In this document: positions 28,141 to 60,867 of the stretch, piece by piece
Layout of the letters: each line of letters opens with the position of its first letter
Position numbering within the stretch: position 1 is the first letter of the stretch
Assembly (NCBI GenBank): GCA_014237145.1
Contig: JAAXOC010000110.1
Coordinates: forward strand, 25,639-89,638
Direction of reading: 5' to 3'
From: ANME-2 cluster archaeon
GTDB lineage: Archaea > Halobacteriota > Methanosarcinia > Methanosarcinales > Methanocomedenaceae
Length of the DNA stretch: 64,000 bases
Position numbers and translations under genes: made by a program
Notes under the pieces: generated by a model
Told to the model about the DNA's origin: nothing
The model's input: only the letters and a program-made list of their open reading frames with translations
Database searches by the model: none

Positions 28141-31100
28141 TCACAATTTTGCCCCGCACTCAAGACAGAACTTCTGTTCATCCTCAACCTCTATGCCGCA
28201 GTTTGGGCACTTCTTCGTACCTGCGCCAATAGTTGACCGCTCGACATTAGAATCCTTAATGTGGATGCTTACATTGTTGGCATTATTTGCAATACTACTC
28301 CTACGCACCCAGCTATCCTCTATTACCACATTTCCATCGCATATTCCATTAATATCGCAGGCGCCTAAAAGGTTGCTCCGCATTATTTGGGAATCTTTGA
28401 TGGAGACATTGAATACAGGTGCGAGTTTTCCAAGAGCTTCTCCTCTTTTTGAAAAATTTCGTCCAAGCTCAGCAAACAAACCTATTATATCTTCCTGATC
28501 CGGAGCTGCCACAAAGATTTCAATTCTTTCAGTCTCTTTGCTTACACTTGCCTTGATTACAAGATCGATCATCTTAACCTTTGTCTTTCCGTAGTACCAT
28601 GTCTCATAGGTCTTGTCATCAGTAGTCTTAAAAGTCCTCACATGGCGCACATCATGCATTTGGATGACCTCGCGGCACAGTGTCAGTGCCTTATTTATAC
28701 TAACTCCACTGGGCAGTAAAAATTCCTTACTGCTCTGGGCAGGAAGCGAGGCAACAAGTTCCTTCAGCCTGCCAATATTTATGTCCTGCTCGGTTTTGAA
28801 CAATGGGCATACGATTGGAATTTTTACAGGTTCCATTCTAACCAAATCAGGTTTACCATAAGCATCTTTGTAGTCAATCCTGCAATTAATTACCCCACCC
28901 TTCGAGCAGATTAAGCCCTCAAAATACAATACGATTGTTTTATCGCCATTTGATGCTATATTTCCAAGCTGAATCTTTTCCTTTTTCATAGCATAAGTAT
29001 TTGGTTCGTGATGATCGAATCTCAAGACGTTCTCATCATGCTCGATATCAAGGGAGACATCTGTGGCTGTAAGCTGCATTTTGTTTTGTACTGATATTTT
29101 AAGACGGATAAACCCATTGAAGAAATCATCTTTTCGGAGAACCACAAACTTATTGGAATCAGTCATAACCTTTTCACTTGGACTCGTAACACTTTCCCCT
29201 GCCGTCTCTATGTCTGTACTTATCTGGATTATTGCTGTATCCTCAGTCTTGTAGACTCTATCCAAAATATCTTTAAATTCTACAACGTAGTCGACTGGAA
29301 CTTCTCCTTTTTCAGTTGGTTTTATGTTAACATTTATAGTTTTTTGCTTACCAGCCTCAAGTCTTTTGATAATTTTAAAGTCTCGCACCTCAAGAGCTGT
29401 TAAGAAAGTAATCGTTATGGCTACGGCATGAGCAGTTCCCTTGTTTGTTACTATTAAATCCCGATGTTTCCAGGCTTTGTACTCCATCTTTGGTGGCAGT
29501 TCTATGCTAATTGAAGGCTTGCTTTCGTCAATTAATTGTTCAGTTGTGCCCCTACTCTTATTAGCGTAACTTATCGCACTGTTGTAATCATTTGCATCAA
29601 AAGCAGACTGTGCTTTGGTGTTTAGTTCTTCACCACTCTGCACTGTGACGCCAAGCTTTTTGGCTTTTTCCAGTGAATTTTTCGCAATTTTTATTTTTTC
29701 TGCTGTATCAGTTCGCAACTGCTCTAACTCTCTCTGCTTGCGTGCCTGTTCTGCTTTTTGTTGTTCATAATCCTTCACTGCAATATTTATATTTTCACTG
29801 CATTTGTGTGCATACTCTTTAGCAGTTGCAAAATGTCCTGCATCAACTTCTTTTCGTGCGTCCTGCAACAATTGTTGAATACTCTGTTGAATATTCACGC
29901 CTCTGTTCATCGCATCCTGTAAATCAATTTCTACATCTTGAATGGCTGACTTTGCTTTTTCTAGCGGTGAATAGTTTTTAGTAGGTATAAAATTAGGTTC
30001 TAATGCTGAACGTTTTGCTGGCTTATGTGACTTTTGGGATGAAGTTTGTATCACTTCCGGCGCCATTCTCCTTCTTTTTCCAACAGCGACAATGCCACCT
30101 AATACAATCATAGCGCCTACCCCAATAAATAACCAGTTTGTATCATTTATATCACTTGTGGCTGGTATGGAATTAACGTTTAACAGATGGACACCATTGC
30201 CCCCAACTGCAAGAAAAGATCCGTCAGGAGAGGTTGAAACACTATGGACAAAAAAAGGTGTGTTATAAGTCCATAGTTTTTTGCCATTTCGGTTAAAGAA
30301 GTGGACTAAGCCGCCATTGCCTCCTGCTGCCACAAAGGAGCCATCTGTTGAGATAGAAACTCCCCAGATATCCTCATGCTTTATATTTCCCCAGAAATCT
30401 TTCTTCGCATTATAATTCCAGAGTTCAGCGCCATTATGGTCTAATAGGTAGATATTTCCATTCGTACCTCCTGCTGCCACATAGGAACCATCAGCAGATA
30501 TGGAAATTTTTTGGACACTTCTGTCATCATTTATAGCATATAAATCATAGTTCCAGAGTTTTTTACCATCGCCATTAAAGAGATATATATCAGAATCCAT
30601 TACAGCGGCGATAGAAGAACCATCTGCAGATATAGCGATGTCGTCTACTTCATGAACTGTATCATAAGTCCAAAGTATTTCACCATTGAGATTGAAAAGG
30701 TAGATGGTCCCATTTGGATGGTTTCGCCAGTCACCACTACCGACTGCCACATAGGCTCCATCTGAGGACATTGCGATGCCATTAACTTTATCAGATATAT
30801 TATAGTTCCATAGTTTCTCACCATCAAGATTAAACAGATAAACATTGTTATTATCCCAACCAACTCCCGCTGCCACATAAGAACCATCGTCGGATATAGC
30901 GACATCCCAAACAGCATATTCCATTTTATAGTTCCATAATTTTTCACCATTATTATTGAGGAGGATAACATTACCCATCTGTTCACCATAGCTATCACCA
31001 CTACCAACCGCAATATAGGAACCGTCAGCAGACATGGCGACATCCCAAGCAATCTGATCAAGTTCATAATTCCAATCGAAGTAATCTATTGGCTCTGTAG

Positions 31101-31173
31101 CTACTACACCTTGGACTTGACAAATAATAAGAATTAAAAAAAATAGTGATTTTTTACTTAATGACATATTCAT
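28141..31173 (-). CDS. large single-pass membrane protein: extracellular multi-blade beta-propeller + TM + coiled coil + beta-sandwich domains + conserved module + zinc ribbon
   Basis: ORF 28141..31248; likely start MNMSLSKKSLFFLILIICQVQG (signal peptide); ~8 repeats of SxDGSYVAxG...LWNY; TM WLFIGVGAMIVLGGIVAVGKRRR; QQKAEQARKQRELEQLR coiled coil; IVCPLFKTEQD segment; C-term SNVERSTIGAGTKKCPNCGIEVEDEQKFCLECGAKL. Confidence 0.7.
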   Translation of the reverse strand: MNMSLSKKSLFFLILIICQVQGVVATEPIDYFDWNYELDQIAWDVAMSADGSYIAVGSGDSYGEQMGNVILLNNNGEKLWNYKMEYAVWDVAISDDGSYVAAGVGWDNNNVYLFNLDGEKLWNYNISDKVNGIAMSSDGAYVAVGSGDWRNHPNGTIYLFNLNGEILWTYDTVHEVDDIAISADGSSIAAVMDSDIYLFNGDGKKLWNYDLYAINDDRSVQKISISADGSYVAAGGTNGNIYLLDHNGAELWNYNAKKDFWGNIKHEDIWGVSISTDGSFVAAGGNGGLVHFFNRNGKKLWTYNTPFFVHSVSTSPDGSFLAVGGNGVHLLNVNSIPATSDINDTNWLFIGVGAMIVLGGIVAVGKRRRMAPEVIQTSSQKSHKPAKRSALEPNFIPTKNYSPLEKAKSAIQDVEIDLQDAMNRGVNIQQSIQQLLQDARKEVDAGHFATAKEYAHKCSENINIAVKDYEQQKAEQARKQRELEQLRTDTAEKIKIAKNSLEKAKKLGVTVQSGEELNTKAQSAFDANDYNSAISYANKSRGTTEQLIDESKPSISIELPPKMEYKAWKHRDLIVTNKGTAHAVAITITFLTALEVRDFKIIKRLEAGKQKTINVNIKPTEKGEVPVDYVVEFKDILDRVYKTEDTAIIQISTDIETAGESVTSPSEKVMTDSNKFVVLRKDDFFNGFIRLKISVQNKMQLTATDVSLDIEHDENVLRFDHHEPNTYAMKKEKIQLGNIASNGDKTIVLYFEGLICSKGGVINCRIDYKDAYGKPDLVRMEPVKIPIVCPLFKTEQDINIGRLKELVASLPAQSSKEFLLPSGVSINKALTLCREVIQMHDVRHVRTFKTTDDKTYETWYYGKTKVKMIDLVIKASVSKETERIEIFVAAPDQEDIIGLFAELGRNFSKRGEALGKLAPVFNVSIKDSQIMRSNLLGACDINGICDGNVVIEDSWVRRSSIANNANNVSIHIKDSNVERSTIGAGTKKCPNCGIEVEDEQKFCLECGAKL

Positions 31174-31346
31174 AATACCCCATGAAGTTGGTTTAATTTC
31201 AAGTCTTATTATGTTCTTCCCACAGTTTATACACTTGCGGACACCCATACCAATATTTAACCGTTAGATGTCGTATATTTTACTTAAAAACACGTGTTTA
31301 CTACCAATATATAGATTTATTTCCAAATATCAATACCCTTTTTTTT

Positions 31347-32654
31347 TCAATCCATCTTCCCCCCACACTCCCCACAGAACTTCGCCTGCACCGGCACCAT
31401 AGCCCCGCAGTGTGGACACTTCCTCAACTTCGCACCAGAACTTGCACCTACCCCTGCCGATACCGGCTTGGCCGCATCCATCAATTTAGCATCCAGTTCC
31501 TGCCTTCGGTAAGCATCCTTGCGCTCCCTGTCCTCAACCCCCTTCATAAACTCAACCTTTTCATCTTTCGCTTTTGCCTCGCTTTCCCTAACCTTAGCCA
31601 GCGCCTCGATCTGCTCCGCCGAAAGATTACTCAACTCACGCCCTTCACTAATAGTCTTCGCAACATCGGCACCGTCCGCCTCAGTAACAGTCTTCATATA
31701 CTCCATATCCCGGCCGTGCTCTCTATCCTTCATATCCTGCTCAACCTCAAGCTCGGCACGCATACCCCTGGCCTTTGAAAGGTGCATCTCCTCCTTTAGC
31801 TTCAATGCCTCACGGGCCGCCTTGATATCTGCCTCGTCCTCTCGCTGCTCTCTTTCAATCTGTGCCCGAACATCTTTAAGCTCCTGCTCCCGCCTGAAAT
31901 CCTTTTCAACTGATATGGGAGCATGTCTGGCCCGTACTCCAGCCACATCCACCCTGCCTTCCCTTTCCAGTCCCCCCTCCTTCGAGATAGTATCAAGTTC
32001 AGCCAGTTCTTCCCCTGTCTGGAACTCCTGGTGAGCTTCAAGTATAGTCTTGTATTCGCCAAGGTCCCACTCTGCCGTATGTTTCAACAGTTCCAGGCCC
32101 CACATATCCAGTGTCTGTTCAAGCTGGGATTCCAGTTCATTCTCGATTGTGATCTGCAAGTCCCGGTTGCCGTATATATCTTCCATAGGCATACGGCTGA
32201 TCTCAGGTTCAAGTACCCGTGTCAATACCTCGCTCTGCAGGCGTGCGTATATATCCCGGACTCCAAGGGCACGTTCACCTTTCTTATCAGTAGTTGAATA
32301 AGCATATACCATTGAAAAGAACCGTTTTATATCCCCTATCTTGAAACGAATTAACCCGCTGCAACCAAGTTTCTGTTTATCTGCTGTCCAGAGTTCACCC
32401 ATGTTCCAGTTAAGGTCTTTGGGCGAAGTGTCCATTATGACTACATCCACGTCCTTTAAAAAATTCCCGGGTTTCAGCAATCCGCCGACACGGATCTTCC
32501 CGCTGTCCAGTACATCTGTTACCTCGCCGTTCTTGACTATCACAGCTTTTTCATTAGGCTGGATGATCAGGTCCTTTTTAAGGATACCACCCACCTGGTT
32601 TTTCGGTATATTCCTGGCAATATCACTTACATCTCGCAACCATTTCCGGGCCAT
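31347..32654 (-). CDS. SPFH/band-7 (flotillin-like) domain protein with long coiled coil and C-terminal zinc ribbon
   Basis: 435 aa; N-terminal SPFH-like segment (NEKAVIVKNGEVTDVLDSGKIRV...DVDVVIMDTSPKDLNWN...LIRFKIGDIKRFF), E/R/K-rich coiled coil, tail KCPHCGAMVPVQAKFCGECGGKMD; no TM helix. Confidence 0.6.
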   Translation of the reverse strand: MARKWLRDVSDIARNIPKNQVGGILKKDLIIQPNEKAVIVKNGEVTDVLDSGKIRVGGLLKPGNFLKDVDVVIMDTSPKDLNWNMGELWTADKQKLGCSGLIRFKIGDIKRFFSMVYAYSTTDKKGERALGVRDIYARLQSEVLTRVLEPEISRMPMEDIYGNRDLQITIENELESQLEQTLDMWGLELLKHTAEWDLGEYKTILEAHQEFQTGEELAELDTISKEGGLEREGRVDVAGVRARHAPISVEKDFRREQELKDVRAQIEREQREDEADIKAAREALKLKEEMHLSKARGMRAELEVEQDMKDREHGRDMEYMKTVTEADGADVAKTISEGRELSNLSAEQIEALAKVRESEAKAKDEKVEFMKGVEDRERKDAYRRQELDAKLMDAAKPVSAGVGASSGAKLRKCPHCGAMVPVQAKFCGECGGKMD

Positions 32655-36004: not shown

Positions 36005-36877
36005 TTACAACAGGCCGTAATGTTCAATGTTCCAGTTGGCAATATCCTGTATCTTGGATATCTCCTCTTTTCCGCCTTCCATTGTGAACAAGTGCTTGAA
36101 CCTACCCTGTGCTTTGAGGTATTCTTCCACAGGCTTTGGCTTTTTTACCTTCCTGACTGAAGTTATCTCACCATCTTCTACCTCGTACAAAGGCCACAGT
36201 GCAGTCTCGACTGCCAGTTTACCGATCTCCACAGTCTTAGAGGTATCAAACCTCCAGCCCGTTGCACAAGGAGCATGGGCATGGATATAAGTAGCCCCCT
36301 CAATGTCCACTGCCTTTTTGACCTTGCGCATCATATCCTTTGGATAGGAGATAGACGTGGTGGCCACATAAGGCGAACCGTGGGCAAGTATAATGGCAGG
36401 CATGTTCTTCTTGGGCCTGGAGTTGCCAAAACTCTGGCTGCCAGGCGGGCTGGTTGAAGTTGAAGCATTAAATGGAGTGGCTCCACTGCGCTGTACACCT
36501 GTGTTCATGTATGCCTCGTTATCGATACACACATAGGTGATATCGTCACCGCGCTCGAAAGCCCCTGATATTCCAAGTATTCCTATATCCACTGTAGCGC
36601 CGTCGCCACCCATGGCTATGACTTTTGTATCACCTTTACGTCCAAGTGCCCGCAAGGCCGCCTCAATACCCGAAGCTACAGATGCGGTGTTCTCGAACAA
36701 TGAATGTATCCAGGGCACTTCCCAGGCTGATTCAGGGTACGGTGTGGTCATCACTTCCAGACAGCCGGTGGGATTTACAACTATGGCATCGTATCCTACC
36801 GCTTCCAGTACGAAATTTGCTGCCATTGCATCGCAACAGCCCGCGCATCCCCTATGTCCAGGTGCCAGTCTGCTCAT
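36005..36877 (-). CDS. porB: pyruvate:ferredoxin oxidoreductase beta subunit (TPP-binding)
   Basis: 290 aa; GHRGCAGC and GGDG TPP/Mg-binding motifs. Confidence 0.9.
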
Positions 36878-38067
36878 AAGAGTTCACCTCGCAGATCAGC
36901 ATATTCACTTTCAACCTTAATACCGGATTTTATAGCCTGTGCGGCCTTATCAATGATCATTTGAATGGTGCTCATCGGAATATCCCGCCCGCCGTGTCCC
37001 AGCATGAAACCCATCACAGGTACATTGATATCTGTATTATATAAGCAGGATTTAACCTCGGTAAACAAGGCACCTTCGTTCAGGCCAACTGAAATGTTCT
37101 TATCCAGGGTCACGACTATGGCAGCATCTGAGATCGCACTAGGTATGACTTCCACCGGGAAAGGCCTAAATGTCCTGACCTTGATCAGGCCCACCTTGAT
37201 ACCCTGGCTGCGGGCTTTATCAATTACATCCTTAATAGTGCCCACCACCGAGCCCATTGCCATTAACAGGATCTCGGCATCCTCTGCCATATATGGTTCA
37301 ATGAGTCCGCCGTAGTAACGGCCGAATATCGTCTTGAAATCCTCGGCAGCCTTCTCTATCTTACCAAGGGCTACATCCATTCCTTTTTGTTGCAGGTACC
37401 TGAATTCCGTATAGGCGGACGGATCAGCAAAAGTGCCAAATGACAATGGGTTACGGGTGTCAAGCACATGCTCCGGGTCATAGGTAGGCAGGAACTCATC
37501 AGTCAGGTCCTGCTCAAGTAATATCACAGGTTCAAATACATGTGAAAGGATGAAACCGTCCATGCAGACCATGGCTGGCAGCATGACATCTTTGTCCTCT
37601 GCTATTTTGAAGGACTGGGCTGTCATATCGCTCATTTCCTGGATATTTTCCGCATATAACTGTATCCAGCCCGTATCACGCTGGGATATGCTGTCCTGGT
37701 GATCATTCCATATACTGATGGGTGCACTCACGGCCCGGTTTACTACTGTCATAACAATCGGCAGTCGCATACCTGAAGCATTGAACAGCACTTCGTGCAT
37801 CAGTTCCAGTCCCTGGGAAGATGTGGACGAATATGTCCTGGCGCCCGTAGCACTGGCACCTACCAGTGCGGAAAGCGCAGAGAACTCGCTCTCTACATTT
37901 ATATATTCACAATTGGGTATTTTACCATCGGCCATGAACTGAGACAGGTCTTCTACGATATGGGTCTGTGGTGTGATGGGATATGCCGATATTACATTGG
38001 GCCTGCAAACCTTTACAGAATGGGCTATTGCATAAGAACCTTCTACCACTGTCATTTTACCAGACAT
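36874..38067 (-). CDS. porA: pyruvate:ferredoxin oxidoreductase alpha subunit
   Basis: 397 aa; 4-nt overlap with porB; typical PorA length and sequence. Confidence 0.9.
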
Positions 38068-38068
38068 A

Positions 38069-38329
38069 TTATTTCTCCTCCAGCACCATTTCTATGGCAT
38101 CCTTGGGACATTCATTGGCACAGATGCCGCAGCCTTTACAGTAATCATAATCAAAGATAACGTACTTGTCTTCCTGCTCTTGGATACTGCTGTCCGGGCA
38201 TAACAATGAACACAGCCCGCATTTGACACACTTATCCTTATTGTACAGGGGCCTGAAATTCCTCCAGCCACCGGTCTTATTGACCCTGGTAGTACCGGGC
38301 TTTACAGCTCCACCGATCGTGACCTTCAT
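38069..38329 (-). CDS. porD: pyruvate:ferredoxin oxidoreductase delta subunit (2x[4Fe-4S])
   Basis: 86 aa; [12 protein letters not shown] and [12 protein letters not shown]. Confidence 0.9.
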
Positions 38330-38871
38330 TGTCTCGCCTCCATGCGGAGATAAGCTTCAAGCACGGCCTGGGAATTCTTTTCGCCCACTTTACCGGGGAA
38401 GCGTTCAGCTACAGCATTCTGGATGCTTTTAACTTTGATTTCGCCTGTGGCGCCAGCAAAAGCACCCAGCAGAATGGTATTAACAATGGGACGGCCAATA
38501 ATGTCAAGGGCAATCCTGGTTGCATCTATTGTTATGACCTCTGCTTCTGTGTCAAGGTCAAAGGTATCAGGTGAAAACTCAGTGTTTATCAATATCTTAC
38601 CGTCAGGCTTAGCACCCGATGCCACGTCCACTGTCTCGATGAGTGTGGCATCCTGTACGATCACATAATCAGGTTCGTATATCTGGCTGCGAAGCCTGAT
38701 GGGTTGTTCGCTGATTCTTGTAAAAGCCATTATCGGAGCGCCCCTCCGCTCCACTCCGAAGGCAGGGAATGCCTGGGAATATTTTCCATCTTCAAATGCT
38801 GCAACTGCCAGCAGTTCGGCGGCAGTAACTGAACCCTGTCCTCCACGGCCATGGATACGTATTTCCTTCAA
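38326..38871 (-). CDS. porG: pyruvate:ferredoxin oxidoreductase gamma subunit
   Basis: 181 aa; HGRGGQG motif; first gene of porGDAB order on the minus strand. Confidence 0.9.
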
Positions 38872-39050
38872 GTAAAGCTTCCTCCAAATTATTATAAAAT
38901 GTGTTGTTTTCTTAACAGATGATGATAAGTGATTCGTAATTGTTTAGTTATTATTTATTACTTATGATAGATTAAGGGACTTAGGGGGCTTAATGAACAA
39001 AAAGGTAATGTTCGAAATCTTTTTTAACACTTCTAACGTAACTTAGTCCA

Positions 39051-39716
39051 ATGCGACTTGACCTACACATCCATTCATGTTATTCCAAGGATTGCGCCTC
39101 ACCGGTAGCAGCAATCCTAAAACAGGCTATTAGGGCAGGACTTAACGGAATTGCTATTTGTGATCATGACACAGTGGAAGGATCGCTTGAAGCCAGGCGT
39201 CTGGTAGATGAGATGGGGCTTGACCTGGTGGTAATTCCCGGGATTGAAGTAACAACTAACCGTGGTCATCTGTTGGTATTGGGTGCAGATAAAGCGTTCC
39301 CAATAAATTCTGACCCAAACGACATTATTAAAATGGCCAGGGAGCGTGATTGTCTTATCGTGGCACCCCATCCCTACAAGGGCTACCCAAAAAGTTTAGG
39401 CGATGTATCTGACCTGGACGTGGATGCAATCGAGGTCCTGAACTCCAGGTTCATCCTTGGTAAATTCAATAAAAGGGCAGTGAAAATGGCAGAAGCCCTG
39501 GGTCTGCCTATGCTGGGCAACAGTGATGCTCATTTTGTAGAGATGGTGGGCAGGGCTTACACTGAAATTGACGCTAATCCGTCGGTTGAGGCCGTATTTA
39601 AAGCAATAATGGACAAAAAAACTGTGGTACATGGTACCAGGACTCCACTTGGAGTTCAGTTCTACCAAGCATGCCTGGGAGTTAAAAGAAGGATGCTGAA
39701 CCTTATATATGAATGA
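39051..39716 (+). CDS. PHP-domain metal-dependent phosphoesterase
   Basis: 221 aa; LHIHSCYSKDC and ICDHD PHP motifs. Confidence 0.75.
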   Translation: MRLDLHIHSCYSKDCASPVAAILKQAIRAGLNGIAICDHDTVEGSLEARRLVDEMGLDLVVIPGIEVTTNRGHLLVLGADKAFPINSDPNDIIKMARERDCLIVAPHPYKGYPKSLGDVSDLDVDAIEVLNSRFILGKFNKRAVKMAEALGLPMLGNSDAHFVEMVGRAYTEIDANPSVEAVFKAIMDKKTVVHGTRTPLGVQFYQACLGVKRRMLNLIYE

Positions 39717-39826
39717 AAGATGCTGAATAGTAATGACGGATAAAAGAAATCATTCATTGATCTAAAAACAATTTAAAAAAAAAGAAGGGAAGATAGAATA
39801 ACTATCTTCCGGATGGCAGTTAAAAT

Positions 39827-40771
39827 TTAATTCTTGATTTTCCTTATCACAAATAACATAGCCAGTGATGTCAATGCAGCCAAGACTCCAAACCCTGGAG
39901 TCCCTGATGTTCCCTCGTCACCTTCGGTTGTAGTGTCCGCAGGCCCTGATGTGTCAGTATCGACCGGAGTCGTTGCTGTTGCATCTGGTGCATCTGGTTC
40001 ATCTGCTACCATCGGGTGGCATACAGAACACTTTAAACCAGTACTGGAGGTTTTAAGAGCTATCTGGTTGTATCCGTGAAGTGTTTCAACATTGTGGCAT
40101 AGTATACATTCCGGGATCATGATCTTTTCCGTAGCCTGGTCTATATGACATTTTTCACATGCCACATCAGGAATATGGATAAAGTGAGGAATCTCACTTG
40201 CACTCACATTGACAGAACCAGGCCTATGACATTTGTAACATGAATTCGGATCAGAAGCCTCGCCATGAAGCACTGCAACATCAGAAGAGACGTGGCAGCC
40301 CTGGCAGACAATTATATCGCCCGCACCTGTAACTGGTGAAACAATATTCGCTGCTGAACCATGGCACGCACTACAGGATTCTGTTGGTCCACCGTGAACG
40401 TCCAGCAGGTCACCGTGGCAGTGTGCACACAGAGTATCTGACATCATTTCCAAATGTAAACTATCAAGCCCTACATGGCAGTACGAACAATCCTCAGTTT
40501 GTACCTTTTTAATGTGAACATTATGTATCGAACCTGTATGGCATTTGTAACATGAAGGATCTCGATCGGTTAATGTTGCACCGTGACATCCTTGGCATGT
40601 GGCTGATGTCATTTCATGTATCACATGCGTATCTAGATTATGGCAGACCGCCTTACAGTTCGTGTCTTCTGCCATTTTGCTTACTGTATCATATTCTGGC
40701 CCTTCTGCTTGAACCGCAGTGACCATTGAGAATATTACTATTAATAATAGCAAAGCTTTGATTTGCTTCAA
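39827..40771 (-). CDS. secreted multiheme c-type cytochrome (about 10-11 heme motifs) with Thr/Asp/Pro-rich linker and PGF-CTERM anchor
   Basis: 314 aa; signal peptide; CxxCH motifs CQGCHG, CYKCHT, CSYCHV, CAHCHG, CSACHG, CQGCHV, CYKCHR, CEKCHI, CILCHN, CSVCHP plus a CxxxCH (CKAVCHN); C-terminus TPGFGVLAALTSLAMLFVIRKIKN. Confidence 0.85.
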   Translation of the reverse strand: MKQIKALLLLIVIFSMVTAVQAEGPEYDTVSKMAEDTNCKAVCHNLDTHVIHEMTSATCQGCHGATLTDRDPSCYKCHTGSIHNVHIKKVQTEDCSYCHVGLDSLHLEMMSDTLCAHCHGDLLDVHGGPTESCSACHGSAANIVSPVTGAGDIIVCQGCHVSSDVAVLHGEASDPNSCYKCHRPGSVNVSASEIPHFIHIPDVACEKCHIDQATEKIMIPECILCHNVETLHGYNQIALKTSSTGLKCSVCHPMVADEPDAPDATATTPVDTDTSGPADTTTEGDEGTSGTPGFGVLAALTSLAMLFVIRKIKN

Positions 40772-40887
40772 ATTTTCTCCTCCTTTTATTATTTTGTATT
40801 TAATAATTGATTTCCATCTCCCTTATGCTATTATTAACTTTTCGTTTTAATCATAGCATAAAGTAGGTACTCATTATTGTCAAGTGT

Positions 40888-41724
40888 TCACCTGAATACA
40901 ATCAGTGGTCTTTTCTCCCGTGGTTTTTTCTCATGTTCTTCGTGTGCACCCTCAACAATTTCTACATATTCGTTCATAGTTTCCTTACCGGTTAAGAACA
41001 GGGCCTTAACATTTTGTGACATCCTCGGATCAGTTCCCAGGAATCCCAGATGAATGATGAGTTCAAGCACGAACCAGTATGTTGCCCACAAGTGTAATGA
41101 CCTGATCAACTGCACCCCGCTCATGCCGATAATTGCAGCTGCACTACCGGTTATGTCATTAACGAACCAGGCCATGAAATTATTCCATACAGGTATATCA
41201 AAATTCACAAATCCGAATTTCAGGTCTATCATTATGATTCCTGTCAGTCCGATAAAGAGAATGGCCATTGCTTCAAATACCACCATCAGTTTATAGCCCG
41301 GATGAAGTTTATTTTTATAATGACCAGTGGTTTTATCGTAAATCGTGTATTTTGGATATTCCTCTGGTGGTTTAAATACGCCAACAATGGCTTGATAAAG
41401 CCTGGTAAAATCTTTCAGGCCGAATAAGTCATTCAACAGGTGACCGCTGGTTATCAGATTGAACGGTATAAATGACCAGTTGATCACCAGGAACAGGATA
41501 CCTGCAATCACATGGATCAGACGGAGAGTTTGATATGACATCAAATCCCATGCATGTAAGCTACAAGTATTGAACTGTATAGCCATGTACAGTCCTGTAA
41601 TTAAAAGCAGAACACAAGTTATCATATGTGACTGGTGAGCTATCATATCCCTCAGTCTATACCGTCTTCCTACAACATCATTATCAAAGTTTTGATTTCC
41701 CTGCATACACATCCTCCATTTCAA
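40888..41724 (-). CDS. membrane-integral b-type cytochrome-like protein (di-heme cytochrome b / FdnI-like)
   Basis: 278 aa; 5-6 TM helices with conserved His in helices (RLIHVIAG, HLWATYWF, IIHLGF); immediately downstream of the multiheme cytochrome c gene. Confidence 0.55.
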   Translation of the reverse strand: MKWRMCMQGNQNFDNDVVGRRYRLRDMIAHQSHMITCVLLLITGLYMAIQFNTCSLHAWDLMSYQTLRLIHVIAGILFLVINWSFIPFNLITSGHLLNDLFGLKDFTRLYQAIVGVFKPPEEYPKYTIYDKTTGHYKNKLHPGYKLMVVFEAMAILFIGLTGIIMIDLKFGFVNFDIPVWNNFMAWFVNDITGSAAAIIGMSGVQLIRSLHLWATYWFVLELIIHLGFLGTDPRMSQNVKALFLTGKETMNEYVEIVEGAHEEHEKKPREKRPLIVFR

Positions 41725-41897
41725 ACATATAATTGTAAATCACCGATTTGGAAGCTCAATACACTCCACAAACGTACACAGATGTTTTACTCTATATTTA
41801 TCAGATTATATTTTTGTAGATTACATTGTTAGATATAGTTTTCGTTTAAGTTCTGCTGAATCGCTTATATTATACTCTCATATACCCTGTCAATCTA

Positions 41898-42458
41898 TCA
41901 AATGTGCTTGATAATATGGGGTGCCTCGGGAATAATCAACTCCTTTAAGGCAAGCTCTACCGCTGCCGGTGATCCGGGTAAACAGAATACCACGCATCTA
42001 CCCACAATCCCGGCAGATGCCCTGGAGAGCATAGCAGCAGTCCCTACGTCTTCCAGGCTTTTCAGCCTGAACAGTTCGCCAAAACCGGGAATGGTCTTGT
42101 CAAAAAGTGGTTCCACCGCTTCCAGGGTCACGTCTTCGGGCGCAAGTCCGGTGCCGCCACTGATAACGATAGCATCGACATCCACACCCATGTCTGCATC
42201 TATATCTGTGCCTGTCAGTTCCCGGACATGCCAGGCAATCAAGGTCTCATCATCAGGCAGCAGTGAATATGTCTTTACATCAAAACCTGAACCTGATATC
42301 AGGTCTATCATGACCGTTCCTGATATGTCATCAGCAAGCTGGGGCCTGGATACACTGCCATAGGTCTCATACCTGGATGTGCTCACTGTGATAATTGCGA
42401 ATTTCACTGATGCAGGAGCATTCTTCTTGTGTATTGCAGGCGTATCGTCCCAGGGCAT
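41898..42458 (-). CDS. moaB: molybdenum cofactor biosynthesis protein MoaB/MogA
   Basis: 186 aa; FAIITVSTSR...VISGGTG signature. Confidence 0.8.
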   Translation of the reverse strand: MPWDDTPAIHKKNAPASVKFAIITVSTSRYETYGSVSRPQLADDISGTVMIDLISGSGFDVKTYSLLPDDETLIAWHVRELTGTDIDADMGVDVDAIVISGGTGLAPEDVTLEAVEPLFDKTIPGFGELFRLKSLEDVGTAAMLSRASAGIVGRCVVFCLPGSPAAVELALKELIIPEAPHIIKHI

Positions 42459-42501
42459 GAAGAGATTTATGTGTCATGGATTATATGAACTAATCTATTC
42501 T

Positions 42502-43563
42502 ATGCAGATAATAGCTATTGACGTAGGAATGGGTACACAGGACATACTGCTGTATGACGATGCACAGCATATTGAGAATAATATCAAGATGGTGCTCCCC
42601 TCCCAGACCCGGATAATTGCACAGCGTATCAGCCATGCCACAGGCGCAGGGCATGATATCTTCCTCACTGGTACTACCATGGGCGGCGGTCCATCGGGCA
42701 AGGCCATACGTGAACATATCAAGACGGGGTTGAAAGTTTATGCCCGGCCGGATGCTGCCCTGACCCTGCACGATAACCTGGAGAAAGTGACGCAAATGGG
42801 TGTGACGCTGGTGGGCGAGGAGGAGTCTGTACCCGGGGGGGCAGAGCAGATCGAAATGTGCGATGTGGATACCCATGCCCTTGGCACAGCACTGGAGCTG
42901 TTCGAGACACAACTGCCCAGGGACTTCGCAGTGGCGGTCCAGGACCACGGTGAAGCTCCTGACATGAGCAATCGCGTGTTCAGGTTCCGGCATTTCAGGG
43001 AGCTGCTAAAGCAAGGCGGTGAACTGGAGCGCTTCGCCCATTTGAATAAGGTGCCCCCTCACCTTTCCAGGATGCAGGCAGTCATAGAGACCTTGAAACA
43101 GCCCGGGAATAATGTACTGCTCATGGATACGGGGCCTGCTGCCATTTGCGGGGCGCTGGCAGGCAAATCCGGCGACCCGGTAGCTGTAGTGAACATAGGC
43201 AACGGGCATACCCTGGCTGCCGTGGTGGCCGGGAACAGGATGCTGGCATTGTTCGAGCATCACACCCGGTATGTGGATGCACAAAAGATTGATGGACTTA
43301 TCAGGCGGTTATGTGATGGAGAACTTGGTTTCGATGACATTTTCAACGATGGTGGGCATGGTTGTTATATCCAGCAGGCCGTGGGGTTCTTAAACATCGA
43401 ATCAGTGATAGTGACAGGTCCCAACCGCCAGATCATGGAAGATTCGGCGCTTGATGTGGAATTTGCAGCACCTCACGGAGATATGATGCTTACCGGATGT
43501 TTCGGGCTTGTAGAAATGTTTGGGAAGAATATGGAAAAGACCATTGTTGCAAATGATGAGTAA
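42502..43563 (+). CDS. ASKHA-fold ATPase-like protein (DUF1786-like)
   Basis: ORF 42379..43563 in track overlaps moaB; probable start MQIIAIDVGMGTQD at 42502; actin/sugar-kinase-like phosphate-1 motif. Confidence 0.5.
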   Translation: MQIIAIDVGMGTQDILLYDDAQHIENNIKMVLPSQTRIIAQRISHATGAGHDIFLTGTTMGGGPSGKAIREHIKTGLKVYARPDAALTLHDNLEKVTQMGVTLVGEEESVPGGAEQIEMCDVDTHALGTALELFETQLPRDFAVAVQDHGEAPDMSNRVFRFRHFRELLKQGGELERFAHLNKVPPHLSRMQAVIETLKQPGNNVLLMDTGPAAICGALAGKSGDPVAVVNIGNGHTLAAVVAGNRMLALFEHHTRYVDAQKIDGLIRRLCDGELGFDDIFNDGGHGCYIQQAVGFLNIESVIVTGPNRQIMEDSALDVEFAAPHGDMMLTGCFGLVEMFGKNMEKTIVANDE

Positions 43564-43995
43564 AAGAAATAAAGAATGATGAGGCAGACCAACCCTTTTT
43601 TGTATCTATTTCAAAAAGTATGGTAAAATGCAAAATAAATATAGACATAGATTTCACAGATTACACTGATTTCACTCGTCATCTATTTTTGGATCGTTCT
43701 CTATCTGTTTTACAAGATAATGGACTACAAGGATGATGCCCGCCATGACCCCATGCTGAATGAGGATATTGCGGCGGCGCTGGGTCTTGCCACAAGGAGG
43801 AACTGGCAGATATCAAGAAGACTGCATTGAAGATAAATAATATTCTCAAGTCATACCTGGATGGGAAGGGACTTCTGCTGCCGTCCCATTTGTTTTGGAT
43901 AATGATCTTTTTCAATCTGTGTATTTGCAGATATCTGTGAATGCAAATCTTTATGTGTCCAAATATCCTACAATATAAGCAATTAAGGTGATCTC

Positions 43996-44151
43996 ATGCC
44001 CACAATCACAGTATCAATGCCTGACAGATTCAACAGAATTAAAAAAGAATTCCCTGAAATTAACTGGAACGAAGTAATGAAAGCAGGGATACTGAAACGT
44101 CTGGATGAGTTAAAAAAGTTCGAAGAACTTAAAACCAGAGGTGCGTTGTGA
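43996..44151 (+). CDS. small protein paralogous to N-terminus of the 44152..44442 product (antitoxin-like)
   Basis: Unlisted 51-aa ORF MPTITVSMPDRFNRIKKEFPEINWNEVMKAGILKRLDELKKFEELKTRGAL; shares VxxPDxxxxExxxxNWxEVxxxxxLK pattern with next gene. Confidence 0.3.
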   Translation: MPTITVSMPDRFNRIKKEFPEINWNEVMKAGILKRLDELKKFEELKTRGAL

Positions 44152-44442
44152 ATGGTAAATGTGGTATTGACTGTACCTGACCATGTGAAAAATGAAATTG
44201 GTCTGTTTCCATGGGTCAACTGGTCTGAAGTTGCCAGGGAAGAAGTTCTTAAAAAAGATATATTTGAAAGATATCTTAAAAGCGGAGGATTGACAGATGA
44301 AGACTGGGAATTCTGCGAAAAGATAGACTGGCATCCGGTTGATGAACTTCCGCTGAAGGACGAATTTATTAAAAGATTGAAGGAGGCCGAAAAAGGCAGA
44401 TTTATTAAAGTGGGATCCCTTGATGAGCTGTTTGAGGACTGA
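44152..44442 (+). CDS. putative antitoxin of RelE/ParE-type TA pair
   Basis: 96 aa acidic protein immediately upstream (3-nt gap) of a RelE/ParE-like toxin gene. Confidence 0.4.
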   Translation: MVNVVLTVPDHVKNEIGLFPWVNWSEVAREEVLKKDIFERYLKSGGLTDEDWEFCEKIDWHPVDELPLKDEFIKRLKEAEKGRFIKVGSLDELFED

Positions 44443-44444
44443 GA

Positions 44445-44702
44445 ATGGAATGCTTTATTGAGGAAAATTGTAAGAGAAAGATCAATAAGGCATGTAAAAA
44501 GAATCCAATATTAAAGGGGGTTCTTGAAAGTAAGATTTCTGAGATACTCTCTTTTCCTGAACGTTTCAAGCCATTAAAGAATCTGGATAAGGGGATAAGA
44601 AGAGTTCATATCCTGAAGAGTTTTGTTCTTACCTATAAACTGGATGATGGTATTGTCTATTTTATTGATTTTGACCATCACGATAAAATCTACAAAAGAT
44701 GA
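44445..44702 (+). CDS. RelE/ParE-superfamily toxin
   Basis: 85 aa; FKPLKN...RRVHILKSFVLTYKLDDGIVYFIDFDHHDKIY matches RelE/ParE fold pattern. Confidence 0.6.
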   Translation: MECFIEENCKRKINKACKKNPILKGVLESKISEILSFPERFKPLKNLDKGIRRVHILKSFVLTYKLDDGIVYFIDFDHHDKIYKR

Positions 44703-44719
44703 ATGTATGTTTATCCCAT

Positions 44720-45545
44720 TCATCTGATAGTGACCTTGCGGCGGCGTAAAGGCAAGTTGCGCGAAGGATTGTGCATTAGGGCAATGTACAGGATACCGTG
44801 GCTGTATCTCACAAAACCTGCATATCGAAAGGTGTTTTACGACATGGCCAAGATGCCGGGAACATGATAAAGCATTTTACGAAATATTAAGGGCGCGGCA
44901 TATATGCGGGCAGGAAGCCTTTGTGACACCGCTGCTTTAGTCCATCTATTTCTTTATTGAACTGCGTAGGAGGGGGAACAGGTCGTAAACTGCCTGCTTA
45001 AATTCGTCTCCCACGTCCTCCCAGGTTATTGCTTACCTGGTTTTGGCGGCAGCAGTATCCTGCCTGGGTTCTGTTTCTTTCTTTGGTGACTGTTCGGTCC
45101 GGACCAGATTATGGAGGATTAAGATATACCCGCCAAGCATCAGCTTGATGCTCCAGATTAGAGTGTAGCGAAATCCGGGGTCGGTGACTGGCGTGCCTTG
45201 AAGCATAAAAGAGAAAGACAAAGAAACAGGACATCGAAAAAAAAATCATGTCCCACTGCTGGCGAAAATCCCCCAGCCCGGGTCTGCTCCCCATCGAAGA
45301 TAACGAGCAGTGCGGCACTGTGAAGTATCGTGCAAAGTTCCCCGGTATCGGCAGCCGCAGCCCAAAGCGTAGGCAAACCAGAGGTGGGCTTGGTGGTTGG
45401 CGACATTCGCGTTACAAATAGAAGCCCGATCTAACAGGAAATCCATACATGCGATTTTATGAGGGAAATGGTCGCGAGACATTTCCTTTACACTACCAAG
45501 AAAGCTAATCTCTTATTCAAGTAGTGGCAAGATTACTTTTTGAAA
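44720..45545. other. ~0.8-kb GC-rich non-coding segment (candidate structured RNA or decayed element)
   Basis: Only short overlapping ORFs in several frames on both strands; GC clearly above flanks; internal inverted repeat ctgtttctttSKctttc ~130 nt apart. Confidence 0.4.
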
Positions 45546-50105: not shown

Positions 50106-54528
<4,423 letters not shown>

Positions 54529-54532
54529 TTAT

Positions 54533-60811: not shown

Positions 60812-60867
60812 AAGTACTCCTCCTAATTTATTTTATTATTTCAGTAACCTGATCAGAGAACAATAGT

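What the first reader, a model, noticed from the sequence alone, without database searches (positions are those of the whole stretch)
39827..41724. Multiheme cytochrome c with PGF-CTERM anchor paired with a membrane b-type cytochrome
The 39827..40771 product has about 10 CxxCH and one CxxxCH heme motifs, a Thr/Asp/Pro-rich probable glycosylated stalk, and a PGF-CTERM archaeosortase signal. That makes it a surface-tethered multiheme cytochrome. The downstream gene encodes a polytopic protein with conserved His residues in its helices (cytochrome-b-like). Such pairs are characteristic of archaea capable of extracellular electron transfer (ANME-2/Methanoperedens, Ferroglobus/Geoglobus) and are uncommon in ordinary methanogens. 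This helps place the organism and suggests an electron conduit from the membrane quinol/methanophenazine pool to the cell surface.
Basis: partly seen in the sequence, partly recalled or inferred. Interest (0 to 1): 0.6.

Follow-up and report, generated by a model that had tools for sequence, protein, structure and literature searches.

The report
ANME-2a Mco cytochrome b–multiheme pair
This is a two-gene unit from a methane-oxidising archaeon (ANME-2a): a membrane cytochrome b followed by an 11-heme, lipid-anchored cytochrome c, already described in 2022 as the proposed "Mco" complex that passes electrons from the membrane carrier methanophenazine to the outside of the cell; its function has still not been shown by experiment.

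Summary
On the minus strand, a cytochrome b gene (40888..41706) is followed after 116 bp by a 314-aa cytochrome c gene (39827..40771).

**Cytochrome c**
- It has a signal peptide, 10 CxxCH motifs and 1 CxxxCH motif.
- It has 22 His, all invariant in 21 homologues. That is enough for 11 bis-His hemes.
- A 38-aa Thr/Asp-rich stalk is followed by a PGF + hydrophobic helix + basic tail C-terminus.

**Cytochrome b**
- It belongs to Pfam PF01292.
- The four heme-ligand His sit at the expected places: H24, H65, and H205/H219 spaced i, i+14.
- Its nearest characterised relatives are Methanosarcina VhtC/VhoC, the cytochrome b of the methanophenazine-reducing hydrogenase (about 36% identity).

**Context**
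- The pair, within the block MoaB–cyt b–MHC–PHP–POR, recurs in every ANME-2a/2b locus long enough to show it.
- The nearest genomes are Ca. Methanocomedens.

This is the Mco (methanophenazine–cytochrome c oxidoreductase) cluster named by Chadwick et al. 2022. There are three corrections:
- The b gene lies upstream of the c gene.
- Its family is VhtC/FdnI, not NrfD or HdrE.

Novelty: already known. Function is still untested biochemically.

The parts
40888..41706 (-). mcoA-type cytochrome b gene (272 aa from the ATG at 41706; the mechanical ORF extends to a TTG at 41724). VhtC-like di-heme cytochrome b with 4 transmembrane helices, N-terminus and C-terminus in the cytoplasm.
41713..41717 (-). 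GGAGG ribosome-binding site 6 nt upstream of the cytochrome b ATG
   Evidence: Sequence read directly.
41635..41637 (-). His24 codon (TM1, cytoplasmic side). Inferred ligand of the cytoplasmic-side heme b, paired with His219.
   Evidence: Invariant in 118 sequences. Aligns with His22 of E. coli HyaC. Position in TM1.
41512..41514 (-). His65 codon (TM2, outer side). Inferred ligand of the outer-side heme b, paired with His205.
   Evidence: Invariant in 118 sequences. Aligns with His63 of HyaC in the motif RLIH.
41050..41094 (-). His205 to His219 segment of TM4. The two His are 14 residues apart, which is the di-heme spacing of the FdnI/HyaC family.
   Evidence: Both invariant in 118 sequences. 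They lie in helix 197-225 of the model.
40772..40887 (-). 116-bp intergenic spacer between the two genes. It holds an AU-rich stem-loop (40821..40863) and the GGAGG ribosome-binding site of the cytochrome c gene (40779..40783).
   Evidence: Fold of the spacer. Only weak conservation and covariation across 10 loci: consensus -2.5 kcal/mol, 1 compensatory pair. Ribosome-binding site read directly.
39827..40771 (-). Gene for the 11-heme c-type cytochrome (314 aa, TTG start), the Mco multiheme subunit.
   Evidence: Motif count and shuffle test. 40 homologues, 41-89% identical. Cytochrome c7/c3 Pfam hits above cut-off. Conserved position directly after the cytochrome b gene in 13 genome loci and 6 metagenome or MAG contigs.
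40706..40771 (-). Sec-type signal peptide, residues 1-22 (MKQIKALLLLIVIFSMVTAVQA, inferred cleavage after VQA).
   Evidence: Sequence features: K2 and K5, a hydrophobic core, and A at -1. A22 is nearly invariant. The cleavage site is inferred, not predicted with a dedicated tool.
40013..40705 (-). Heme-binding domain, residues 23-253. Eleven heme attachment motifs and 11 further invariant His (49, 52, 83, 86, 106, 117, 126, 169, 196, 199, 232), about 21 residues per heme.
39899..40012 (-). Acidic Thr/Asp/Pro/Ala-rich stalk, residues 254-291. Length (30-52 aa) and sequence vary among homologues.
   Evidence: Glycosylation is an inference by analogy and was not tested.
39830..39898 (-). PGF-CTERM-type sorting signal, residues 292-314: PGFG, a 15-residue hydrophobic helix and the tail RKIKN. 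The helix contains no His.
   Evidence: Tripartite layout in all 21 homologues; P292, G293, F294 and G295 are invariant or nearly so. HMM scores just below cut-off. NCBI names a homologue fragment as PGF-CTERM.
39778..39810 (-). Terminator-like hairpin (9-bp stem, 5-nt loop) followed by a run of nine T, 17 nt after the stop codon. Marks the end of the two-gene unit.
   Evidence: sequence.

Best explanation
The two genes are the Mco (methanophenazine-cytochrome c oxidoreductase) cluster of an ANME-2a archaeon close to Candidatus Methanocomedens.

Shown here:
- McoA is a four-helix, di-heme cytochrome b of the FdnI/HyaC/VhtC family.
- It forms its own clade next to VhtC, the membrane subunit of the Methanosarcina methanophenazine-reducing hydrogenase.
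- In place of the hydrogenase genes, its fixed neighbour is an exported 11-heme cytochrome c with a PGF-type C-terminal anchor signal.

Inferred mechanism:
1. Reduced methanophenazine, produced by Fpo, Rnf and HdrDE during reverse methanogenesis, is oxidised at McoA.
2. Electrons cross the membrane through the two stacked b hemes: the H24/H219 heme on the cytoplasmic side, then the H65/H205 heme on the outer side.
3. Electrons enter the 11-heme chain of the cytochrome c. This protein is exported by Sec and matured by Ccm. Archaeosortase A probably cleaves it at the PGF motif and attaches it to a membrane lipid, leaving a flexible acidic stalk of about 38 residues.
4. This cytochrome relays electrons across the space under the S-layer to other ANME multiheme cytochromes, and onward to the syntrophic partner or to minerals.

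All hemes appear bis-His, so the cytochrome is a wire, not a catalytic enzyme.

Further inference from homology to the VhtC redox loop: if the phenazine site is on the cytoplasmic side, as invariant H27, H129 and H135 near that side suggest, outward electron flow would consume membrane potential rather than build it.
For: Identity of the parts:
- Pfam PF01292 hit above cut-off.
- 118-sequence alignment with invariant H24, H27, H65, H135, H205 and H219.
- Four hydrophobic helices. K+R counts are 3, 7 and 9 on the inferred cytoplasmic segments against 0 and 1 on the outer loops.

Relationship to VhtC:
- The only other homologues found are Methanosarcina 'methanophenazine hydrogenase cytochrome b subunit' proteins at 29-44% identity.
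- One of these lies directly after the NiFe small and large subunit genes.
- The ANME sequences form one clean bipartition in an NJ tree.

Partner switch:
- In 13 of 13 genome loci with enough sequence, and in 6 further metagenome or MAG contigs, the cytochrome b gene is followed within about 100-180 bp, on the same strand, by the multiheme gene. It is never followed by hydrogenase genes.
- The two largest ANME-specific insertions in the cytochrome b (residues 44-51 and 175-181) fall in the two outer-face loops, where a partner would dock. The VhtC-specific insertion is in a cytoplasmic loop.

Cytochrome c:
- 11 motifs and 11 extra invariant His.
- No CxxCK or other open-site motif.
- PGF, helix and basic tail in all homologues.

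Other:
- One transcription unit is plausible: ribosome-binding sites before both genes and a hairpin plus nine T after the second.
- Literature: the same cluster is named Mco, and high cytochrome b transcript levels are reported in ANME-2a and 2c (PMC9012536). ANME-2a genomes carry archaeosortase A (PMC5244752).
Against: - No biochemical or genetic evidence exists for this complex, here or in the literature searched.
- Physical contact between the two proteins was not modelled.
- The phenazine-binding site is unknown, so the direction of proton release and the effect on membrane potential are inference.
- PGF-CTERM profile scores for this sequence are below the curated cut-offs. Cleavage by ArtA is not shown, and the archaeosortase gene is not in the window.
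- A 38-residue flexible stalk and a 116-bp spacer with a stem-loop fit a loosely associated, separately regulated partner as well as they fit a tight complex.
- According to PMC9012536 the two genes are unlinked in ANME-2c. One Methanosarcinaceae MAG has a 41%-identical cytochrome c without an adjacent cytochrome b.
- No structure was predicted for the cytochrome c, so the heme arrangement and ligand assignment are not established.
Confidence: 0.72

Rival explanations
1. Same complex, opposite physiological direction. Like its ancestor VhtC, the cytochrome b reduces methanophenazine, taking electrons from the multiheme cytochrome. That would mean electron uptake from a partner, a mineral or a cathode, or reversible operation, building membrane potential as a redox loop.
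For: Homology to VhtC, which works in the inward direction. A bis-His heme wire and a di-heme cytochrome b have no built-in directionality.
Against: ANME-2a oxidise methane and must dispose of electrons, and published models need an outward route (PMC9012536). No sequence feature specifically indicates uptake.
Confidence: 0.1
2. The two proteins are neighbours but not partners. The cytochrome b serves another, unlinked redox enzyme, and the cytochrome c is a generic membrane-tethered electron carrier.
For: The genes are unlinked in ANME-2c according to PMC9012536. One MAG has the cytochrome c homologue without the cytochrome b. The stalk is long and the spacer between the genes contains a stem-loop. 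The whole block MoaB-cyt b-MHC-PHP-POR is syntenic, so adjacency could partly reflect conserved gene order in general.
Against: The two genes are same-strand and immediately adjacent in every ANME-2a/2b locus seen across 57-96% cytochrome b identity. The ORFs of 150 aa or more scanned against Pfam in the window gave no hit to a hydrogenase, formate-dehydrogenase or other usual cytochrome b partner family; several had no Pfam hit and smaller ORFs were not scanned. Vht hydrogenase is reported absent from ANME. The ANME-specific insertions lie on the outer-face loops.
Confidence: 0.1
3. Variant of the anchoring step. The C-terminal helix of the cytochrome c is not removed by archaeosortase. It stays as a transmembrane anchor that packs against the cytochrome b, as the C-terminal helices of FdnH, HyaA/HydA and Geobacter CbcA do.
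For: PGF-CTERM profile scores are below cut-off here. In related bacterial systems the partner's C-terminal helix docks on the cytochrome b and can even supply a heme ligand (bioRxiv 10.1101/2021.04.15.440034).
Against: The helix has no His, and the cytochrome b carries all four ligands itself. PGF is invariant or nearly so, and the layout of Thr-rich stalk, PGF, short helix and basic tail is the archaeosortase-A signature. NCBI names a homologue fragment as PGF-CTERM. ANME-2a have ArtA.
Confidence: 0.2
4. The cytochrome c is itself a terminal reductase, for example of a soluble metal, a sulfur compound or nitrite, and not a relay.
For: It has one non-canonical CxxxCH motif. Multiheme enzymes often carry one unusual site.
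Against: Part of the family has a normal CxxCH at that site. There are exactly 11 non-motif invariant His for 11 hemes, which leaves no obvious open coordination site. There is no catalytic-type motif and no similarity to NrfA, Hao or Otr.
Confidence: 0.05

Closest known systems
Mco (methanophenazine-cytochrome c oxidoreductase; McoA cytochrome b plus multiheme cytochrome) of ANME-2a/2b, Chadwick et al. 2022, PLoS Biol (PMC9012536)
   Same: A VhtC-like cytochrome b directly followed by a 7-11-heme cytochrome c instead of vhtGA, in the ANME-2a lineage. The nearest genomes include a Ca. Methanocomedens MAG.
   Different: Nothing essential; this is another allele, 94-96% identical in the cytochrome b and 85-90% in the cytochrome c to public MAGs. 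Details recorded here that did not appear in the passages of that paper I read: all 22 His are invariant, the first heme motif switches between CxxxCH and CxxCH, this subunit carries a PGF-type anchor, and the clade-specific insertions lie on the outer loops of McoA.
VhtGAC / VhoGAC, the methanophenazine-reducing [NiFe] hydrogenase of Methanosarcina (cytochrome b subunit VhtC/VhoC)
   Same: The cytochrome b is homologous over its full length (29-44% identity), has the same six invariant His, and has the same predicted topology. The presumed lipid substrate, methanophenazine, is the same.
   Different: The partner is a multiheme cytochrome, not a hydrogenase. The gene order is b then partner, whereas in Methanosarcina the order is small subunit, large subunit, b. 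There are insertions in both outer loops and a C-terminal PLIVF[RK] tail, and the VhtC cytoplasmic-loop insert is missing. The presumed electron flow is outward.
E. coli formate dehydrogenase-N gamma subunit FdnI (1KQF/1KQG) and hydrogenase-1 cytochrome b HyaC (4GD3)
   Different: Only 13-18% identity. Bacterial, menaquinone-dependent, and partnered with Fe-S subunits that have their own transmembrane helix.
Geobacter sulfurreducens CbcL and CbcBA, inner-membrane quinol oxidases for extracellular electron transfer
   Same: The same logic and architecture: a di-heme b-type quinol-oxidase module joined to a periplasmic multiheme cytochrome c, either fused or encoded next to it. CbcB is described as related to hydrogenase cytochromes b (bioRxiv 10.1101/2021.04.15.440034). 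This is a functional analogue with genetic evidence.
   Different: Bacterial and menaquinol-dependent. In CbcBA the fourth b-heme ligand is thought to come from the C-terminal helix of the cytochrome c subunit. Here the cytochrome b holds all four ligands, and the C-terminal helix of the cytochrome c has no His and looks like a cleavable PGF-CTERM signal. Sequence relationship was not tested here.
PGF-CTERM / archaeosortase A substrates (for example the Haloferax volcanii S-layer glycoprotein)
   Same: A Thr-rich linker, PGF, a hydrophobic helix and a basic tail at the extreme C-terminus.
   Different: The cargo is a small multiheme cytochrome rather than an S-layer protein. HMM scores here are just under the cut-offs. 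Processing is not shown.

Membership tests
Mco cluster (Chadwick et al. 2022) | The cytochrome b is a close sister of Methanosarcina VhtC | tested here: met
   The only non-ANME homologues found are VhtC/VhoC-type proteins. One lies after the NiFe small and large subunit genes. The ANME clade is monophyletic in an NJ tree: 57-96% identity within, 29-44% to the Vht group.
Mco cluster (Chadwick et al. 2022) | The cytochrome b gene is directly followed by a 7-11-heme cytochrome c gene instead of vhtG/vhtA | tested here: met
   116-bp spacer, same strand, 11 heme motifs. The same arrangement is seen in 13 genome loci and 6 further contigs. The ORFs of 150 aa or more that were scanned against Pfam in the window gave no hydrogenase hit; several had no Pfam hit and smaller ORFs were not scanned.
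Mco cluster (Chadwick et al. 2022) | Host is ANME-2a or ANME-2b | tested here: met
   The best genome matches include Ca. Methanocomedens sp. S7142MS1 and HMMV-459A3 plus Methanosarcinales / ANME-2 MAGs, at 94-96% cytochrome b identity.
Mco cluster (Chadwick et al. 2022) | Catalyses methanophenazine-H2:cytochrome c electron transfer | not testable with these tools
   Needs biochemistry. No experimental paper was found.
PF01292 di-heme cytochrome b (FdnI/HyaC/VhtC type) | Profile match above the curated threshold | tested here: met
   36.5 bits against a cut-off of 30.1, covering profile positions 1-167 of 179.
PF01292 di-heme cytochrome b (FdnI/HyaC/VhtC type) | Four-helix transmembrane bundle fold | tested here: met
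PF01292 di-heme cytochrome b (FdnI/HyaC/VhtC type) | Four His ligands: one early in TM1, one early in TM2, and two in TM4 spaced 13-14 residues apart | tested here: met
   H24, H65, H205 and H219 are invariant in 118 sequences. H24 and H65 align with HyaC H22 and H63. The spacing in TM4 is 14.
   The only Pfam hits were PF01292 and, weakly, DUF4405. There was no NarI/HdrE or NrfD hit at E <= 0.1. The NCBIfam best hit was the Ni/Fe-hydrogenase b-type subunit.
Multiheme c-type cytochrome | Multiple CxxCH motifs with conserved distal ligands, plus an export signal | tested here: met
   10 CxxCH and 1 CxxxCH; shuffle mean 0.10. All motif Cys and His and 11 further His are invariant. There is an N-terminal signal-like peptide. 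Cytochrome_C7 and Cytochrom_c3_2 hits are above cut-off. Covalent heme attachment and the Ccm genes are not testable in this window.
PGF-CTERM / archaeosortase A substrate | PGF motif, hydrophobic helix and basic tail at the extreme C-terminus after a Thr/Ser/Pro-rich linker | tested here: met
   PGFGVLAALTSLAMLFVIRKIKN follows a 38-aa stalk of T10 D7 A5 P4. The layout is present in all 21 homologues.
PGF-CTERM / archaeosortase A substrate | Score above the curated HMM thresholds | tested here: inconclusive
   Pfam PF18204: 17.0 against 18.8. TIGR04126: 15.9 against 24.5. NCBI names a fragment of one homologue as a PGF-CTERM sorting-domain protein.
PGF-CTERM / archaeosortase A substrate | Archaeosortase A is encoded in the same genome, and the protein is cleaved and lipidated | not testable with these tools
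   No archaeosortase Pfam hit came up among the ORFs of 150 aa or more that were scanned in the window. The literature reports ArtA domains in ANME-2a genomes (PMC5244752). Processing needs mass spectrometry.

The most novel reading that the evidence does not exclude
Mco may work as a VhtC redox loop run backwards. Methanophenazine-H2 would be oxidised at a cytoplasm-facing site marked by invariant H27, H129 and H135. Protons would be released inside and electrons driven outward through the two b hemes at the expense of membrane potential. That would let ANME-2a push electrons onto low-potential cytochromes. The two ANME-specific outer-loop insertions of McoA (residues 44-51 and 175-181) would form the docking surface for the lipid-tethered 11-heme cytochrome. 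In addition, the cytochrome gene may be exchanged between ANME-2a lineages as a cassette, as the mosaic locus L014 hints.
Probability: 0.3. Interest if true: 0.55.

Novelty: already known. Interest (0 to 1): 0.28.

Why it matters
How methane-oxidising archaea move electrons from their membrane carrier pool to a partner bacterium or a mineral is a central open question in the anaerobic oxidation of methane. The Mco pair is the leading candidate for the first step out of the membrane. This window adds one more ANME-2a allele and confirms by computation what the hypothesis needs:
- a di-heme cytochrome b with intact ligands;
- an all-bis-His 11-heme wire with a lipid-anchor signal;
- strict gene linkage across ANME-2a/2b.

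It does not add a new kind of system. Its practical value is as a taxonomic and physiological marker: the window comes from an ANME-2a genome with capacity for extracellular electron transfer. It is also a well-defined target for heterologous expression.

Tried and rejected
1. A single-sequence search of both proteins against PDB sequences gave nothing useful for the cytochrome b (best E 0.17, a rotavirus protein). For the cytochrome c it gave only a weak hit to a Geobacter c7-type multiheme fragment, 3OUQ, at E 0.0025. A 22-sequence profile reached HyaC only at E 0.065.

2. The first AlphaFold run, with a 22-sequence alignment, was unusable (pLDDT 52). It was repeated with 118 sequences (pLDDT 84). 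Its heme geometry and closest fold remain undetermined.

3. Model coordinates are not exposed to scripts, so His-His distances could not be measured. Ligand geometry rests on helix positions and spacing.

4. The stem-loop between the genes looked conserved by eye. A 10-locus alignment gave only -2.5 kcal/mol consensus energy and one compensatory pair. I rejected it as an established RNA element and kept it as a note.

5. Rfam and tRNA scans of the whole window found nothing.

6. No other ORF in the window has two or more CxxCH motifs.

7. I considered NrfD or HdrE identity for the b subunit and rejected it.

8. I considered a catalytic multiheme enzyme and rejected it on ligand count and motif variability.

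9. A literature search for experimental work on Mco or McoA returned only the 2022 comparative-genomics paper.
Full report
**What is in the sequence**

Both ORFs named in the finding lie on the minus strand. The upstream one runs 40888..41724 as a mechanical ORF from a TTG. Homologues begin at MQG, and a GGAGG sits 6 nt before the ATG at 41706, so the gene is most likely 40888..41706, 272 aa.

A 116-bp spacer separates it from the second gene, 39827..40771 (314 aa). That gene has a TTG start with GGAGG 7 nt upstream. A 9-bp hairpin followed by nine T begins 17 nt after its stop codon. The two genes therefore look like one unit, bounded upstream by MoaB (41898..42458) and downstream by a convergently oriented PHP-family phosphoesterase gene.

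**The cytochrome c**

- The product has exactly 10 CxxCH motifs and one CxxxCH (CKAVCH, residue 39). 10,000 shuffles of the same residues gave a mean of 0.10 and a maximum of 3 CxxCH.
- It has 22 Cys, all in motifs, and 22 His.
- In an alignment of 21 homologues down to 43% identity, every motif Cys and His is invariant. So are the other 11 His: 49, 52, 83, 86, 106, 117, 126, 169, 196, 199 and 232. That is numerically enough for eleven bis-His hemes. It leaves no obvious open coordination site.
- The first motif is CxxxCH in most homologues and ordinary CxxCH in others. One homologue has CxxxxCH at heme 3. These are genuine heme sites with tolerated spacing variation, not a special catalytic site.
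- The N-terminus (MKQIKALLLLIVIFSMVTAVQA) has the features of a Sec signal peptide.
- After the last heme motif comes a 38-residue stalk (T10 D7 A5 P4 G4 E3 S2), then PGFGVLAALTSLAMLFVIRKIKN.
- All 21 homologues keep the stalk (30-52 aa, variable sequence), the PGF (SGF in one), the hydrophobic stretch and the basic tail.
- The PGF-CTERM profiles score just below threshold on this sequence: 17.0 against 18.8, and 15.9 against 24.5. NCBI names a fragment of one homologue a PGF-CTERM sorting-domain protein.
- The heme domain passes the Pfam cytochrome c7 and c3 models. Among solved structures it has only a weak sequence match, to a Geobacter c7-type multiheme fragment.
- I did not model its structure, because both prediction jobs went to the cytochrome b.

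**The cytochrome b**

- It passes Pfam PF01292 ('prokaryotic cytochrome b561 / Ni-hydrogenase cytochrome b'), 36.5 bits against a cut-off of 30.1. It shows no NarI/HdrE or NrfD signal.
- A first structure prediction with 22 sequences failed (pLDDT 52). With 118 sequences the model reached pLDDT 84.2 and pTM 0.76.
- Hydropathy finds four transmembrane segments. K+R counts are 3, 7 and 9 for the N-terminus, the loop between TM2 and TM3, and the C-terminus. They are 0 and 1 for the other two loops. This gives an N-in, C-in topology.
- Six His are invariant in all 118 sequences: H24, H27, H65, H135, H205 and H219.
- H24 lies at the cytoplasmic start of TM1. H65 lies at the outer start of TM2. H205 and H219 lie in TM4, 14 residues apart.
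- This reproduces the FdnI ligand pattern (His18, His57, His155, His169; established knowledge, Jormakka et al. 2002). H24 and H65 align with His22 and His63 of HyaC.

**Relatives and context**

- Close homologues of both proteins come only from ANME-2 / Methanosarcinales metagenome-assembled genomes.
- The nearest genome contigs are at 94-96% cytochrome b identity. They include a Candidatus Methanocomedens (ANME-2a) MAG and several Methanosarcinales MAGs.
- The 11-heme family is small. Only 13 clusters at E < 1e-30 were found among 1.84 billion representatives. Beyond that there are only generic matches to giant multiheme proteins.
- The next relatives of the cytochrome b, at 29-44% identity, are Methanosarcina 'methanophenazine hydrogenase cytochrome b subunit' proteins. 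One checked example lies directly after the NiFe small and large subunit genes, the VhtGAC arrangement.
- In an NJ tree the 16 ANME-type sequences form one clean split.
- In all 13 genome loci with enough sequence, and in 6 further contigs, the ANME cytochrome b is followed on the same strand by the 11-heme gene. The conserved block is DUF1786–MoaB–cyt b–MHC–PHP–PORγδαβ.
- The one exception is a Methanosarcinaceae MAG. Its 41%-identical cytochrome c has no adjacent cytochrome b.
- Compared with VhtC, the ANME proteins carry insertions in both outer-face loops (residues 44-51 and 175-181) and a C-terminal PLIVF[RK] tail. They lack a 9-residue VhtC insert in the cytoplasmic loop. That pattern fits a change of outer-face partner.

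**What it is**

This is the cluster that Chadwick et al. (2022, PMC9012536) named Mco, methanophenazine–cytochrome c oxidoreductase. [quoted passage not shown] They note high cytochrome b transcript levels.

The general model, di-heme cytochrome b to multiheme cytochromes in ANME-2a, dates to 2015. It is summarised in PMC5244752, which also reports archaeosortase A and PGF-CTERM multiheme proteins in ANME-2a. I found no experimental characterisation.

**How it most likely works**

Shown:
- the identity and topology of the two proteins;
- the ligand sets;
- the gene linkage;
- the relationship to VhtC.

Inferred:
1. Reduced methanophenazine is oxidised at McoA.
2. Electrons pass through the H24/H219 heme and then the H65/H205 heme to the outer face.
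3. They enter the 11-heme chain of the cytochrome c. This protein is exported and matured by Ccm. It is probably cleaved at PGF by archaeosortase A and lipid-anchored on an acidic stalk that may be glycosylated.
4. From there electrons go to other ANME cytochromes and the S-layer conduit.

The VhtC hydrogenase is generally understood to act as a proton-motive redox loop. Invariant H27, H129 and H135 cluster at the cytoplasmic side. Running the module outward may therefore dissipate membrane potential. This is my inference and is untested.

The closest experimentally supported analogues are Geobacter CbcL and CbcBA, which combine a di-heme cytochrome b with a multiheme cytochrome c. In CbcBA the cytochrome's C-terminal helix is thought to supply a b-heme ligand. 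Here the helix has no His and the cytochrome b holds all four ligands. That favours a cleavable anchor signal over a docking helix.

**Rivals**

- Reverse or bidirectional operation.
- Neighbours that are not partners.
- An uncleaved transmembrane anchor.
- A catalytic cytochrome.

Each is weighed in the structured fields. None is favoured by the evidence. The first three cannot be excluded without experiments.

**Verdict**

- The gene order is b then c.
- The family is VhtC/FdnI-type.

The system is already known as a genomic prediction. It is biologically important, but finding it here is not new.

Noticed in passing
L014:1-2300 and L015 (Ca. Methanocomedens sp. HMMV-459A3), compared with window 39051..41706: Mosaic locus. 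The C-terminal half of the cytochrome b and the POR genes are 96-98% identical to the L001 clade, which is the window's clade. The multiheme gene and the PHP gene between them are only 62-66% and 75-77% identical to that clade, but 90% and 97% identical to the L006 clade. The contig also breaks inside the cytochrome b gene. This is either recombination that swaps the cytochrome cassette between ANME-2a lineages, or a chimeric metagenome assembly.
   Followed up: partly
window 40821..40863 (- strand): AU-rich stem-loop (11-bp stem, CTTTATGCTAT…ATAGCATAAGG) in the spacer between the cytochrome b and cytochrome c genes. It is present in close ANME-2a loci. More distant loci have an analogous hairpin with partly different stem bases. 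Alignment-based support is weak: consensus -2.5 kcal/mol and one compensatory pair.
   Followed up: partly
window 36005..43563 and loci L001-L013, L018-L023: Within the conserved block DUF1786–MoaB–cyt b–MHC–PHP–POR, the two cytochrome genes evolve fastest. In L006, for example, the POR subunits are 85-92% identical, MoaB 81%, the cytochrome b 72% and the multiheme cytochrome 64%.
   Followed up: partly
window 40888..41706 (protein residues 27, 129, 135): Besides the four expected heme ligands, two more His (H27, and H135 in a KLHP motif) are invariant in all 118 ANME and VhtC/VhoC sequences. H129 is nearly invariant. All lie at or near the cytoplasmic side, so they are candidates for the methanophenazine or proton site.
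   Followed up: partly
window 40417..40419 (MHC residue H117): One of the 11 invariant non-motif His lies inside a heme motif (C-A-H-C-H, heme 5). If all hemes are bis-His, this residue would have to ligate a neighbouring heme. No structure was available to check this.
   Followed up: no
window 28141..31248 (-) and 31347..32654 (-): A 1035-aa protein with WD40/PQQ-like beta-propeller repeats, a CARDB domain and a C-terminal zinc ribbon lies next to a 435-aa SPFH/Band-7 protein that also ends in a zinc ribbon. Function unknown.
   Followed up: no
window 44152..44702 (+): Two small adjacent ORFs (96 and 85 aa) in an otherwise gene-poor stretch (43600..45500), arranged like a toxin-antitoxin pair. 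They were seen only in the ORF list and were not searched.
   Followed up: no
window 58818..62643 (-): Three neighbouring genes carry C_GCAxxG_C_C 'putative redox-active' domains and zinc-type alcohol dehydrogenase domains. One of them (60868..62643) is a fusion of the two domain types.
   Followed up: no
window 50106..57494 (-): DNA gyrase A and B and topoisomerase VI A and B are encoded back to back, downstream of ScpA/ScpB. This is ordinary housekeeping context, consistent with a chromosomal rather than mobile location for the Mco pair.
   Followed up: no
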